DNA of 64,000 bases from Leucoraja erinacea (lineage: Eukaryota), in the NCBI RefSeq assembly GCF_028641065.1, contig NW_026575759.1:186001-250000 (forward strand). Reading direction: 5' to 3'. A program made the position numbers and the translations under genes. The notes under the pieces were generated by a model. The model was given only the letters and a program-made list of their open reading frames with translations, did not search any database and was not told the DNA's origin. Below are positions 5,510-59,018 of this stretch, in pieces (position 1 is the stretch's first letter; each line of letters starts with the position of its first letter).

Positions 5510-5563
5510 GTTTGCGGCCAAACTAATCGCTGGAGTGCTGGACTTCAAGTGTAAGCTCGACAG
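5510..5563 (+). CDS. CRAT: CRAT-like coding exon (54 nt): [17 protein letters not shown]
   Basis: tctctacag|G acceptor and AG|gtaagt donor; matches CRAT 'FAAKLIEGVLDFKVMID'. Not in the ORF track. Confidence 0.9.
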
Positions 5564-8500
5564 GTAAGTGTTTCCAGTTGACATCTTGGACCTGTCCCTG
5601 ACATCACACCTGGTTTGTCATTGGCAAGTTTGGAAAGGTCCCTACAAAGCTCTGTGGCGCAGCGGTGGAACTACTGCCTTACTGCGCCAGAGACCCGGGT
5701 TCGATCCCGACTACGGGGTGCTTGTCTATACGGAGTTTGTACTTTCCCCCTGTGACCTTCTGCAGTTGTACAGGGCCCTAGTGAGACCACACCTGGAGTA
5801 TTGTGTGCAGTTTTGGTCTCCAAATTTGAGGAAGGACATTCTTGCTAGTAAAAAGTAAAATTTATTTATATAGCACGTTTAAATCAACTCGCGTTGAGAC
5901 CAAAGTGCTTTACATAGAAAGAAAATAATAATTAGGCTTCCGTACATCCATAGAAAAATTAAAATTAAGAAAAATGACACAACATATTGTATACTTCAAC
6001 ACAAACGTCCCCCACAACAGAATACAAAATTTCCACTGTGGGGAAAGACATCAAAACGTTCAGTCCTCTCCCTCTGTGATCACCCGAGGTCGGGGCCTAT
6101 TTGTGGTCTCCGCAGTCAGTCCGATGTTTTCAGGCCCTCTTGCCAGAAAGCTGGAATGCCGGCATCGGGTGAACACTCCTCGGCGGCTTGGAAATGTCTG
6201 GAGCGGCCGCTCCCTCCCCGGAGACCGCACGCAGCACCCGAAGTCTTCAGACCGCGCTGGTTGGAGCTCCGACTCTGGTGATCTCGAATCCCAGGCTCCG
6301 CGGTGTTTAAATCCAGCGCCGCCCGCCCGCGACTGGACGCTCCACAGCCGCAGCTCCTTGGATGTATATCGGCGGTCACAGTACTCGGTAAGGCATCACC
6401 CACTCCGTGTTGGTGTCCCAGCACTGCACCGCCGCCGAAGCTGTAGTCCCGGCCCATCCCGACAGGAAACGCCGCAACAGTCTGATGGTAGGCCGCGAGG
6501 AAGGGGCGAAGAAGCAGCTCGGAGGGAAACCGCCTCTCCGACCAGGTAGGGACCAGGAAAAGTTTCCCCCTTCCCCTCCCCCCACCCACCACATAAAAGA
6601 AGACCTCCAACAAACATTTTGAAGTAACAGGACTAAAAATAAAAATAAAAAAGGGTGAAAGGACGGACTGCAGGCGGAGCAGCCATACACAACGGCGCCC
6701 CACTCCTGCAGTCCGCCATCTTGAGGGAGTGCAGCGTTGGTTCACCAGGTTAATTCCCGGGATGGCGGGACTGTCATATGTTGAAAGAATGGAGGGACTG
6801 GACTTGAATACACTGGAATTTAGAAGGATGAGAGGGTACCTTATTGAAACATATAAGATTATTAAGGGATTAGACTCGCTAGCGGCAGGACACATGATCC
6901 CGGTTGGAGGAGTCCAGAACCAGGGGCCACAGTTTAAGAATAAGGGAAAGACCATTTAGAATGGGGATGAGAAAAAACTTTTTCACCCAGTGAGTTGTGA
7001 GTCTGTGGAATTCTCTGCCTCAGAAGGCAGTGGAGGCCAAGTCTCTGGATGCCTTCAAGAGAGTTAGATGGAGTAGAGCTCTTAAAGATAGCATATAAAC
7101 ATAGAAATTAGGTCCAGGAGTAGGCCATTCGGCCCTTCGAGCCTGCACCACCATTCAATATGATCATGGCTGATCATCCAACTCGGTATCCCGTACCTGC
7201 CTTCTCTCCATACCCTCTGATCCCCTTAACCACAAGGGCCACATCTAACTCCCTCTTAAATATAGCCAATGAACTGGCCTCGACTACCCTCTGTGGCTGG
7301 GAGTTCCAGAGATTCACCACTCTCTGTGTGAAAAAAGTTCTTCTCATCTCGGTTTTAAAGGATTTCCCCCTTATCCTTAAGCTGTGACCCCTTGTCCTGG
7401 GCTTCCCCAACATTGGGAACAATCTTCCTGCATCTACCCCTTGAGAATTTTGTAAGTTTCTATAAGATCCCCTCTCAATCTCCTAAATTCTAGAGAGTAT
7501 AAACCAAGTCTATCCAGTCTTTCTTCATAAGACAGTCCTGACATCCCAGGAATCAGTCTGGTGAACCTTCTCTGCACTCCCTCTATGGCAATAATGTCCT
7601 TCCTCAGATTTGGAGACCAAAACTGTACACAATACTCCAGGTGTGGTCTCACCACGACCCTGTACAACTGCAGTAGAACCTCCCTGCTCCTATACTCAAA
7701 TCCTTTTGCAATGAAAGCTAACATACCATTCCCTTTCTTCACTGCCTGCTGCACTTGCATGCCTACTTTCAATGACTGGTGTACCATGACACCCAGGTCT
7801 CGCTGCATCTCCCCTTTTCCTAATCGGACACCATTTAGCGGAGCCATGGGATATGGGGAGAAGGCAGGAACGGGGTATTGATTATGGAAGATCCGCCATG
7901 ATCACAGTGAATGGCGATGCTGGCTTGTAGGACCGAAACGCCTATTCCTGCACCTATTGTCTATTGACTTGCGTGGGTTTGCTCCAAGATCTTCAGTTTC
8001 CTCCCACACTCCAAAAACGTACAGCTTTGTGCGTTACTTGGATTGGTATGAATTTAAAATTGTCCCTGGTGTGTGTTAGTGTAGGGTAGTGTTAGTGTGT
8101 TGGGATCGCTGGTCGGCGGTAACTCTGTGAGACGAAGGGTCTGTTTCCACACCGTCTCTCGAAACTAAACTAAACTAAAAATATCATTAGTTCTATCATT
8201 ATCCAAATGAAGCCACAGTGTTATCTGATCTTTTTATCCTTCAATAGAACATAGAACAGCACAGCACACAAACTATGCAAACAATTTATGGCTCTTTGAC
8301 ATCGTATCAAATTTGTTGGAACCTGACCAGATTTATTTTTAACTTCAGTTTAACTGGTAGACTTAAGAGCCTGTCCCACTTGGGTGTCATTTACGTGTCA
8401 TTTACGCAACATCATTTAAGCATCACGATGCACGTGTCGTGACGCCCTCGTGATGCGCGCATGGTGCGTGGTGACATGCGGTTGTGCGCGGTGTCCCAGG

Positions 8501-57072: not shown

Positions 57073-57483
57073 ATGGCTTCGGCCCAGCCGGACGATAGTT
57101 TGACAGAGTATTTAAGTTGCCCCCTCTGCCTCAACTTCTTCACCGACCCCGTCTCACTGGAGTGCGGCCACAATTTCTGCCGCTCCTGCATCATGGATGG
57201 CTGGAAGGAGAAAGAGCCCAACTATTGCCCAGAGTGCAGGGAGGAATTTCAAGGGAGGAATCTCATCGCCAGTCGGGCCTTGGCTAACTTGGCGAACAAA
57301 GCACGGAAACTGAACCTGATGTCCAAAGAAAAAGGGAACAAAATACTCTGCGAGGAGCACTGGGAGGAACTGAAGCTGTTTTGTGAAACGGACAAGAAGC
57401 TGATCTGTTATACTTGCAGGGACGCCCGGGAACACAGAGACCATCGCTTCATGCAGGTTAATGAAGCTGTGGAAATCTATAAG
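57073..57483 (+). CDS. TRIM coding exon 1 (RING + B-box2, 137 codons)
   Basis: aacATGG start (MAS) and AAG|gtgaca donor. Confidence 0.92.
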
Positions 57484-59018
57484 GTGACATATTTGCACAC
57501 CAGATTTCTTAATCATGTTTTTCACGCTCTTTTAGAGAGGTGTGTGTATATGAATGTGTNNNNNNNNNNNNNNNNNNNNNNNNNNNNNNNNNNNNNNNNN
57601 NNNNNNNNNNNNNNNNNNNNNNNNNNNNNNNNNNNNNNNNNNNNNNNNNNNNNNNNNNNNNNNNNNNNNNNNNNNNNNNNNNNNNNNNNNNNNNNNNNNN
57701 GTAGTTGTGTGTGTGTTTATGTGTATGTATGTGTACATGTGTCTATATTTGTGTGTGTGTGTGTATATGTATAAAAGATGGACACAAAATGCTAGAGTAA
57801 CAGCGGGACAGGCATCATCTCTGTATAGAACAAATGTGTGTGTGTGGGAGAACGTGTGTGTGTGTGTATATGTGTACATGTGTCTATATTTGTGTGTGTG
57901 TATATATACACACTGAACCTTTTTCTTGTTTATTATATTGTTTACCGTGTACTATGTTTACATATTCTGTTGTGCTGCTGCAAGTAAGAATCTCATTGTT
58001 CTATCTGTGACCCTATGACAATAAAACACTGTTGACCCTTGGCTCTTAATCCTATTTTCCTTTTTCTCCCAATTTAAGGGCCAAGCAAAGGGTTTCTTAG
58101 ACACTCTGGAAGAGAAGAGATGGGCGATTTTGGAAATAGAGCAACAGCAGAAACAGAAGATCGCTGAGATTAGGGTAATGTGTCTTNNNNNNNNNNNNNN
58201 NNNNNNNNNNNNNNNNNNNNNNNNNNNNNNNNNNNNNNNNNNNNNNNNNNNNNNNNNNNNNNNNNNNNNNNNNNNNNNNNNNNNNNNNNNNNNNNNNNNN
58301 NNNNNNNNNNNNNNNNNNNNNNNNNNNNNNNNNNNNNNNNNNNNNNNNNNNNNNNNNNNNNNNNNNNNNNNNNNNNNNNNNNNNNNNNNNNNNNNNNNNN
58401 NNNNNNNNNNNNNNNNNNNNNNNCAAAAGTTGTAGGTCAACTTGTTCTATTTGATCTATATGTTTGTGCACGTCAGGTTGATTGCATTAGTCGAAACAGG
58501 GCTGACCACGTGAAGGTTGCAATGTCCCACCACTGTGTGTGTGCGCGTGTATGTTTTGTACCACACACAACGCTATTACGGACCCCTTTATACCATATTT
58601 TGGTTACAGTGGTGCAGTGTCACTGGCGCTGTAAGGTAGCAACTCTACTGCTGTGGCACTGTGCCGCCCTTTATAATAGCGGGCAGTCGGGAATAGCGGG
58701 CACCGTTGCCCACCCACTAAGGTCCACCCGCGTTTTAATGCGAGTTCGCTGCATTGTTACCGTTTGCCGCAATTCCTTTTGCAGGATCAGTCGCTCAGCC
58801 TGAAGACCCGCATCACCTCCGAGTTTGCCGAAATGCACCAGTTTCTCACCGAGAAGGAGGAACATCTCACCGGAAGCCTACAACTGCACGAGGGAGAGAT
58901 CCTGGGAGCAATGGAGAAAAATCTTCAGGAAATCCAGGAGCATTCAAAATTAATTTACGACGAGCTGCAAAAGTTCCAGGAGCAGGTGGAGCAGAAAGAC
59001 GGGATCCTCTTCCTGAAG
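57073..59018 (+). CDS. TRIM-family E3 ubiquitin ligase (TRIM39/TRIM27/A33-like; RING, B-box2, coiled coil), 3'-partial; exons 57073-57483, 58079-58174, 58785-59018
   Basis: The C3HC4 RING (CPLC...CGHNFCRSC...CPEC) and B-box2 (CEEH...FCETD...ICYTC...HRDH) are intact. They are followed by 96-nt and 234-nt phase-0 coiled-coil exons typical of PRY-SPRY class TRIMs. Later exons were not identified in the window. Confidence 0.9.
58079..58174 (+). CDS. TRIM coding exon 2 (96 nt): GQAKGFLDTLEEKRWAILEIEQQQKQKIAEIR
   Basis: Polypyrimidine tract with tttaag| acceptor, and AGG|gtaatg donor. Confidence 0.87.
58785..59018 (+). CDS. TRIM coding exon 3 (234 nt, coiled coil): DQSLSLKTRITSEFAEMHQFLTEKE...DGILFLK
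   Basis: ccttttgcag| acceptor; I.SEF..MHQFL.EKE motif; ends at ...FLK with a putative GC donor AAG|gcaagg. Confidence 0.85.

What the first reader, a model, noticed from the sequence alone, without database searches (positions are those of the whole stretch)
5510..59018. CRAT paralog, butyrophilin and TRIM in tandem: possible MHC-linked block holding a counterpart of 9q34 CRAT
Seen: three co-oriented genes within about 55 kb. Established: BTN/BTNL and RING-B-box-B30.2 TRIM genes are hallmark residents of the (extended) MHC, and human CRAT lies on 9q34, one of the MHC paralogons. Inference: this may be the cartilaginous-fish MHC chromosome, and the divergent CRAT may be a whole-genome-duplication copy kept in the MHC and missing from the mammalian MHC. 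An enzyme-dead metabolic paralog among immune genes, next to a receptor family whose B30.2 domain senses small metabolites in BTN3A1, is a provocative arrangement. A functional link is speculation.
Basis: inference. Interest (0 to 1): 0.7.

Follow-up and report, generated by a model that had tools for sequence, protein, structure and literature searches.

The report
Disarmed CRAT twin in vertebrate MHC
This skate DNA is likely a piece of the immune gene cluster (MHC class III) holding an intact, expressed twin of the metabolic enzyme carnitine acetyltransferase that lacks the enzyme's catalytic histidine, as do most of its counterparts from sharks to lizards, so it is predicted to be a long-kept non-catalytic protein, likely a mitochondrial coenzyme-A binder, that mammals appear to have lost.

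Summary
The three genes are real and co-oriented. The 263-kb scaffold also carries PPT2 head-to-head with the CRAT copy and a TNF-family gene. Published gene tables show the same PPT2-CRAT pair inside the MHC of sawfish, reedfish, bowfin and zebrafish chr19, so this is very likely MHC class III; class I/II linkage could not be shown in this fragmented assembly. A separate His-bearing CRAT lies beside PTPA on C31. The window gene is 'cratb'. Trees make it a clade spanning sharks to turtles that predates the shark/bony-fish split, not a teleost duplicate. Among 76 cratb proteins, His343 is Gln in 61, Ser554 is Gly in all and Tyr452 is never kept, while the CoA-binding lysines remain. It is spliced and conserved, so it is a predicted pseudoenzyme; activity is untested. 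His reappears in cypriniforms. A link to the butyrophilin is not supported: its phosphoantigen pocket is mostly absent, its B30.2 exon is frameshifted as assembled, and bony-fish cratb has no such neighbour. The location is already tabulated; the disarmed active site was not found in print.

The parts
5510..28116 (+). cratb (CRAT paralog), exons 4-14: 5510-5563, 8891-9056, 11843-12017, 13027-13205, 15065-15165, 15829-15948, 18212-18334, 19957-20092, 25113-25175, 25796-25933, 27901-28116. Exons 1-3 are upstream of the window (C578:175771, ~183595-183869, 184949-185067)
   Evidence: public record P0388 (631 aa) ends with the window's 489 residues
15107..15109 (+). Gln codon at the position of catalytic His343 of human CRAT
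   Evidence: RNA reads cover it with no listed difference
19982..19990 (+). Cys-Glu-Thr in place of Tyr452-Glu453-Ser454 (carnitine side; role of Tyr/Ser recalled)
25928..25930 (+). Gly in place of Ser554 of the Ser-Thr-Ser motif (oxyanion role recalled)
18261..18296 (+). Retained CoA-side residues Lys419, Lys423, Asp430
35612..49664 (+). Butyrophilin-like gene: leader 35612-35672, IgV 36665-37012, IgC 38356-38640, TM 42763-42882, 27-bp exons 44735-44761 and 46959-46985, B30.2 exon 49064-49664 (frame break in the A-run at 49084-49089 as assembled)
57073..59018 (+). TRIM gene exons 1-3 (RING, B-box, coiled coil): 57073-57483, 58079-58174, 58785-59018; remaining exons and PRY-SPRY continue to C578:255213 beyond the window

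Best explanation
The window is very likely part of the skate MHC class III region, and its CRAT copy (cratb) is an intact, spliced gene, likely a whole-genome-duplication twin of 9q34 CRAT, that lacks the catalytic histidine and is predicted to work as a non-catalytic, likely mitochondrial, CoA/acyl-CoA-binding protein. Shown: gene structure, splicing, neighbours, tree position and residue changes. Inferred: after the duplication the copy lost the general base (His343Gln), the transition-state serine (Ser554Gly) and the carnitine tyrosine (Tyr452Cys), kept the fold and the CoA phosphate clamp (Lys419, Lys423), and gained clade-specific residues (e.g. R235-x-R237, W241-K242-x-D244 in human numbering) that would suit a new binding surface. 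It would then report or buffer acyl-CoA levels, or regulate a partner, rather than transfer acetyl groups. The butyrophilin and TRIM are ordinary MHC neighbours. Odds: MHC class III 0.93; ohnolog 0.8; no carnitine acetyltransferase activity 0.85; CoA-binding regulator as the function 0.5.
For: Scaffold order TNF-family(+), BTN(-), PPT2(-), cratb(+), BTN(+), TRIM(+). PPT2(-)/CRAT-like(+) in the sawfish and reedfish MHC tables; cratb beside ppt2 in bowfin MHC with the same lengths for exons 4-13 and on zebrafish chr19. His-bearing CRAT on C31 head-to-head with PTPA, 10 of 10 internal exon lengths within one codon, ending in SKL. Two clades, each holding cartilaginous, lobe-finned and ray-finned rows; cratb 100/100, canonical 98/95 (46 rows); a shark-only or teleost-only duplication is rejected (p-AU 4e-71 and 1e-65). 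Of 76 cratb and 138 canonical proteins: His343 11 vs 136; Tyr452 0 vs 134; Ser554 0 vs 138 (Gly in 76 of 76); Lys419 73 vs 121; Lys423 75 vs 136; Arg518 71 vs 138; C-terminal peroxisomal signal 0 vs 69. Basic, acid-poor N-terminus in 64 of 68 full-length cratb. Identity to shark 89% and coelacanth 75%, against 86% for the canonical skate-shark pair. Spliced reads across intron 8 in 2 of 4 runs (3 and 10 reads), and 3 of 3 exonic read variants are synonymous. CRAT fold predicted (best match TM 0.85-0.90).
Against: No activity or binding was measured. His is present in 11 of 76 cratb proteins (10 that group with cypriniforms, some unnamed, and one mormyrid), which a purely dead site does not predict. 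Asp430 is Asn in 43 and Glu453 is Asp in 40 of 76, so the CoA side is not wholly kept in teleosts. Thr465, Arg518, Trp102 and Glu347 of the carnitine side are kept, which fits a changed substrate as well. The model is moderate (mean pLDDT 70) and poor at residues 554-576, which hold the Ser554 site. No class I match lies on C578 and the class II search rang nowhere. No lamprey or hagfish row was in the tree. The 76 and 138 rows include isoforms and many close teleosts, so they are not independent events.
Confidence: 0.55

Rival explanations
1. cratb is an active enzyme with a changed acceptor or chemistry (for example an acyl-CoA hydrolase or a transferase to a non-carnitine acceptor), using the remodelled site.
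For: Fold, tunnel residues (Trp102, Glu347, Thr465, Arg518, Met564) and CoA lysines are kept, and the changes are clade-fixed (Gly554 76 of 76, Cys452 65 of 76). His returns in at least two fish lineages. It has sat beside a thioesterase, PPT2, in every table seen.
Against: No clade-specific His, and Cys452 is replaced by Ala, Ser, Thr or Asn in 11 of 76, so it is not an obligatory nucleophile; position 343 varies among Gln, His and Ala. His343 is the general base of the whole family.
Confidence: 0.25
2. The copy arose by an early small-scale duplication or transposition into the MHC rather than by whole-genome duplication; the rest of the reading is unchanged.
For: The tree only brackets the event between the tunicate split and the shark/bony-fish split; no cyclostome row. 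The immediate neighbours are not paralogous (PPT2 here, PTPA on C31).
Against: The two copies lie on the MHC chromosome and on the 9q-type paralogon in reedfish (chr1 and chr9 tables); all introns are kept, so it is not a retrocopy.
Confidence: 0.15
3. cratb is functionally coupled to the neighbouring butyrophilin, supplying or presenting a metabolite to its B30.2 domain.
For: Adjacent in this skate; an unnamed plus-strand gene of similar size follows in sawfish and white shark. Best PDB match of the B30.2 is BTN3A1.
Against: In the alignment only 1 of the 5 aligned BTN3A1 pocket positions is kept, and the sixth, just past the aligned stretch, reads Gln (pocket positions recalled). The B30.2 exon is out of frame as assembled. 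No butyrophilin is listed beside cratb in reedfish, bowfin or zebrafish. The N-terminus points to mitochondria, the B30.2 would be cytosolic.
Confidence: 0.04
4. cratb is a decaying duplicate with no function.
For: Catalytic residues are gone; no named bird, crocodilian, frog or mammal member appeared.
Against: Intact frame and splice sites, spliced RNA, synonymous-only variants, and conservation equal to canonical CRAT among sharks and rays.
Confidence: 0.01

Closest known systems
Carnitine O-acetyltransferase CRAT (human 1NM8, mouse 1NDB; skate copy on G000:C31)
   Same: Same Pfam family, predicted fold, 14-exon plan, about 60% identity, CoA lysines, likely mitochondrial presequence.
   Different: His343Gln, Tyr452Cys, Ser454Thr, Ser554Gly; no C-terminal peroxisomal signal; lies by PPT2 in the MHC rather than by PTPA.
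cratb / 'carnitine O-acetyltransferase-like' database records (zebrafish chr19, bowfin, sawfish, reedfish, coelacanth, squamates, turtles)
   Same: This gene is the skate member: record P0388 carries that name; the MHC position is in two papers' supplementary tables.
   Different: The records name it as an active enzyme and the a/b suffix suggests a teleost duplicate; the tree and residue audit here contradict both. Neither paper's main text contains 'crat' or 'carnitine'.
CPT1C (recalled, no call)
   Same: A carnitine acyltransferase-family paralog with little activity that is thought to act as a CoA-ester sensor: the closest 'works like' model.
   Different: CPT1C is a membrane-bound long-chain enzyme paralog that keeps its catalytic His; cratb is a soluble CRAT paralog that has replaced it.
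Ancestral gnathostome MHC class III (Verissimo et al. 2023, PMC10751288; Thompson et al. 2021, PMC8423624)
   Same: PPT2, CRAT-like, butyrophilin-like and TRIM genes, then PRRT1, NEU1 and the TNF/LT cluster (here split over C578 and C1460).
   Different: Here an extra TNF-family gene lies on the other side of PPT2, and the region is on unplaced scaffolds.

Membership tests
Carnitine acetyltransferase (active enzyme) | Choline/carnitine acyltransferase domain and fold | tested here: met
   PF00755 E 8e-192; Foldseek top hits CRAT, TM 0.85-0.91
Carnitine acetyltransferase (active enzyme) | Catalytic His343 | tested here: not met
   Gln348 aligns with His322 of 1NM8, i.e. His343
Carnitine acetyltransferase (active enzyme) | Ser-Thr-Ser motif with Ser554 (role recalled) | tested here: not met
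   Ser-Thr-Gly; Gly in 76 of 76 cratb, Ser in 138 of 138 canonical
Carnitine acetyltransferase (active enzyme) | Carnitine-binding Tyr452, Ser454, Thr465, Arg518 (roles recalled) | tested here: not met
   Cys, Thr, Thr, Arg: two of four kept
Carnitine acetyltransferase (active enzyme) | CoA-side Lys419, Lys423, Asp430, Glu453 | tested here: met
   All four kept in the window protein; Asp430/Glu453 altered in about half of the clade
Carnitine acetyltransferase (active enzyme) | Acetyl transfer between CoA and carnitine | not testable with these tools
   Needs an assay
MHC class III region | Class III framework genes on the same scaffold | tested here: met
   PPT2 and a TNF/LT-type gene on C578
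MHC class III region | Order matches mapped MHCs | tested here: met
   PPT2(-), CRAT-like(+), TRIMs, PRRT1 in sawfish and reedfish; PRRT1, NEU1 and TNF cluster are on a second scaffold, C1460
MHC class III region | Physical linkage to class I/II, PSMB8/9, TAP, BRD2, RXRB, COL11A2 in this genome | tested here: inconclusive
   15 class I matches lie on 9 other high-numbered contigs; class II search found nothing anywhere; the other five genes were not searched; an exon scan of C578 showed none; no end overlap of C578 with the first 120 kb of C1460
Whole-genome-duplication ohnolog pair | Two clades, each spanning jawed vertebrates, newer than invertebrate chordates | tested here: met
Whole-genome-duplication ohnolog pair | Copies on paralogous chromosomes | tested here: met
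   C31 copy beside PTPA; reedfish crata on the MHCpara-9 chromosome table and CRAT-like on the MHC chromosome
Whole-genome-duplication ohnolog pair | Dating to 1R or 2R with cyclostome sequences | not tested
   No lamprey, hagfish or amphioxus sequence was identified among the 9 outgroup proteins named
Butyrophilin | Leader-IgV-IgC-TM-heptad exons-B30.2 | tested here: met
   B30.2 exon out of frame as assembled
BTN3A1-type phosphoantigen sensor | Basic pocket His351, His378, Lys393, Arg412, Arg418, Arg469 (positions recalled) | tested here: not met
   Only the Arg418 position is kept
TRIM class C-IV | RING, B-box, coiled coil, PRY-SPRY | tested here: met
   PRY-SPRY exon lies beyond the window on L017

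The most novel reading that the evidence does not exclude
Early vertebrate genome doubling turned a second CRAT into a mitochondrial acyl-CoA-sensing pseudoenzyme that has sat in the MHC class III region for over 400 million years, was kept from sharks to turtles and lizards, was lost separately in frogs, archosaurs and mammals, and regained its histidine in carp-like fishes, which hides its nature in zebrafish.
Probability: 0.35. Interest if true: 0.75.

Novelty: new variant of a known kind. Interest (0 to 1): 0.5.

Why it matters
It would add an unrecognised pseudoenzyme to a well-studied enzyme family and correct a common annotation: fish studies that read cratb expression as carnitine acetyltransferase activity, or as a teleost duplicate, would be misled. 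It adds a metabolic gene pair to the MHC paralogon set and marks a slot that is empty in the human class III region. It is directly testable by one enzyme assay, one binding assay and a fish knockout, with cypriniform His-bearing copies as a natural contrast.

Tried and rejected
Reads laid on the butyrophilin B30.2 exon did not cover the frame break in any of 4 runs, so assembly error versus true break is open. The run search listed no holder on record as RNA; only the raw-read lay counts as expression evidence, and 2 of 4 runs (X21, X8) showed no exon reads. Tissues were coded, so co-expression could not be compared. The class II search rang nowhere. No unique overlap joins the end of C578 to the first 120 kb of C1460. 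The atlas look-up gave only a CD225 lead; PRRT1 was settled by PDB. The first tree was a quick one with long outgroup branches; it was rebuilt on 46 of its 67 rows, dropping 6 long or distant rows and 15 close relatives, without the mixture model. Ten paper searches found no paper on cratb as an inactive or MHC-linked paralog; the one 'cratb' hit (PMC11463132) was seen as a listing only. Ohta 2006 and 2019, Sandstrom 2014 and the CRAT structure papers were not held, so Xenopus MHC annotation and the roles of Tyr452, Ser454 and Ser554 rest on recall. No complex was folded: no binding claim needed it. Rejected: retrocopy (introns kept), pseudogene, teleost-specific or shark-specific duplication, butyrophilin coupling.
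Full report
Setting. The window is G000:C578:186001-250000; C578 is a 263,032-base contig. Much of it is repeated sequence: 61% of C578 matched itself or a C31 stretch.

Observation. The CRAT-like gene has 11 exons in the window (5510-28116), all with AG/GT ends, giving an open 489-codon frame. Exons 1-3 lie upstream at C578:175771, about 183595 and 184949. A public 631-aa record, P0388, named 'carnitine O-acetyltransferase b', ends with exactly these 489 residues. RNA reads span intron 8 in 2 of 4 runs laid (3 and 10 reads); the Gln codon shows no listed difference, and the three exonic variants are all synonymous. 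The butyrophilin has leader, IgV, IgC, TM, two 27-bp exons and a B30.2 exon; spliced as assembled it stops after 304 residues because the frame breaks in an A-run at 49084-49089. Reads did not cover that place. The TRIM has RING, B-box and coiled-coil exons in the window and its PRY-SPRY exon just beyond.

Is it MHC? Butyrophilin-type IgC exons gave 34 matches across many contigs, so the pair BTN+TRIM proves little. The flanks decide. PPT2 lies on the minus strand with its start at C578:165934, 9.8 kb from the cratb start. A TNF-family exon lies at 76602-76979, best PDB match TNF. In the supplement of PMC10751288 the sawfish MHC chromosome reads TNXB, BTN, TRIM, BTN, PPT2(-), CRAT-like(+), unnamed, TRIMs, PRRT1, TMEM268, NEU1, TNF/LT; reedfish reads PPT2(-), CRAT-like(+), TRIM, PRRT1; white shark and lungfish have two unnamed plus-strand genes after PPT2, whose identity I could not check. 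The supplement of PMC8423624 lists cratb beside ppt2 in the bowfin MHC, with exons 4-13 of the same lengths as here, and on zebrafish chr19; it shows human PRRT1 and PPT2 abutting, leaving no room for the gene. In G000 a second scaffold, C1460, holds PRRT1, NEU1 and five TNF-family matches in the sawfish order. Direct linkage to class I/II was not shown: 15 class I matches lie on 9 other contigs, and the class II search found nothing. PMC10751288 notes that key MHC genes are unplaced in a related skate.

Is it a genome-duplication twin? G000 has a second CRAT on C31 with His, the same intron plan and a terminal SKL, head-to-head with PTPA; the C34 match is ChAT-like (named by motif from recall). 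In a 46-row tree the C31 copy joins shark and chimaera CRAT in a canonical clade (98/95), and the window gene joins a clade (100/100) with rays, sharks, coelacanth, lungfish, caecilian, axolotl, turtle, lizards, bichir, paddlefish, gar, bowfin and teleost cratb; Ciona, Ptychodera and Lingula fall outside. Holding all cartilaginous copies together, or all teleost copies together, is rejected. So the duplication predates the shark/bony-fish split, and cratb is not a teleost duplicate. With the paralogon positions this fits 1R or 2R; without cyclostomes the round is open. In three protein searches (120 listed each, of 206, 1366 and 1073) no named frog, bird, crocodilian, mammal or chimaera protein fell in the clade, even with a profile weighted to reptile and amphibian members. 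This is fair but not final evidence of loss, since only the top rows were shown.

The active site. P0388 aligns without gaps to human CRAT 1NM8. His343 is the general base, and Lys419, Lys423, Asp430 and Glu453 serve the CoA side (PMC11852590 passages). Among 76 cratb and 138 canonical proteins: position 343 is Gln 61, His 11, Ala 2, other 2, against His 136; Tyr452 is never kept (Cys 65) against 134; Ser554 is Gly in 76 against Ser in 138; Lys419 and Lys423 are kept in 73 and 75; Trp102, Glu347, Thr465 and Arg518 are largely kept. The roles of Tyr452, Ser454 and Ser554 are recalled, not read here. None of 76 ends in a peroxisomal signal, against 69 of 138; 64 of 68 full-length members have a basic, acid-poor N-terminus. 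Twenty columns separate the clades, several clustered at 235-244. Conservation matches the active enzyme among sharks and rays (89% against 86%) and is somewhat lower against bony vertebrates (61-75% against 72-76%). The predicted structure is a CRAT fold at moderate confidence.

Mechanism. Shown: intact, spliced, conserved, catalytic base replaced. Inferred: no carnitine acetyltransferase activity (0.85); mitochondrial import; CoA or acyl-CoA binding through the kept lysines; a sensing, buffering or scaffolding role like that proposed for CPT1C (recalled) (0.5). The main rival is a changed enzyme. The His in cypriniforms and one mormyrid is nested among Gln-bearing lineages (4 changes on the tree) and needs one base change from Gln, so it is likely regained; those proteins still lack Tyr452 and Ser554.

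The butyrophilin link. The B30.2 is closest to BTN3A1 in the PDB but keeps only one of the recalled pocket residues, is out of frame as assembled, and no butyrophilin is listed beside cratb in three bony fishes. Butyrophilin-MHC linkage in cartilaginous fish is published (PMC12841164 passages). I read the adjacency as ordinary MHC content.

What is known. The MHC position is in two supplements, but neither main text contains 'crat' or 'carnitine'. Ten searches found no paper on an inactive or ancient cratb; subscription papers, including Ohta 2006 on the Xenopus MHC, could not be read and may mention the gene. One scanned supplement of PMC8423624 was not searchable. Seen: PMC10751288 passages, section 11, supplement parts 6, 16, 24, 47 and term searches; PMC8423624 passages and file 5 parts 3 and 6; PMC11852590, PMC12841164 and PMC11016064 passages (the last not relevant). 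The scan's earlier notes held nothing on this gene.

Verdict. Observation confirmed; interpretation partly supported. A new variant of a known kind: an old, MHC-resident, predicted pseudoenzyme twin of CRAT. Interest 0.5.

Noticed in passing
G000:C578:92743-128741 minus (L016, L028-L031): A second butyrophilin-like locus with exons in the order IgV, IgV, IgC, IgV, IgC, TM, B30.2: a multi-Ig butyrophilin or two genes in tandem.
   Followed up: partly
G000:C578:76602-76979 (L026): The TNF-family gene lies upstream of PPT2, whereas sawfish and white shark have the TNF/LT cluster downstream past NEU1; it is closest to the last C1460 copy (68 of 126 identical). A moved duplicate, a rearrangement or a misjoin.
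   Followed up: partly
G000:C1460 (L051, L071, L063-L067): Scaffold with PRRT1, NEU1 and five TNF-family matches, the likely continuation of C578 in the class III region; no overlap found.
   Followed up: partly
window 49084-49089: Frame break in an A-run at the start of the butyrophilin B30.2 exon; assembly error or a B30.2-less allele. Reads did not cover it.
   Followed up: partly
window 21018-23932: A LINE-like element with an 859-codon open frame (endonuclease and reverse transcriptase motifs by eye) inside cratb intron 11, likely young.
   Followed up: no
window 59019-59020: TRIM exon 3 appears to use a GC splice donor.
   Followed up: no
proteins P0129, P0132, P0139-P0144, P0150, P0158, P0166; P0024, P0145: Position 343 is His in cypriniform-type and one mormyrid cratb, and Ala in salamander-type copies.
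   Followed up: partly
protein P0012: A bichir gene model fuses SKIV2L to cratb, an annotation error that independently places cratb near a class III gene.
   Followed up: no
proteins P0225, P0064: Some teleost CRAT-family proteins outside the cratb clade also show changes at Tyr452 or a very long branch.
   Followed up: no
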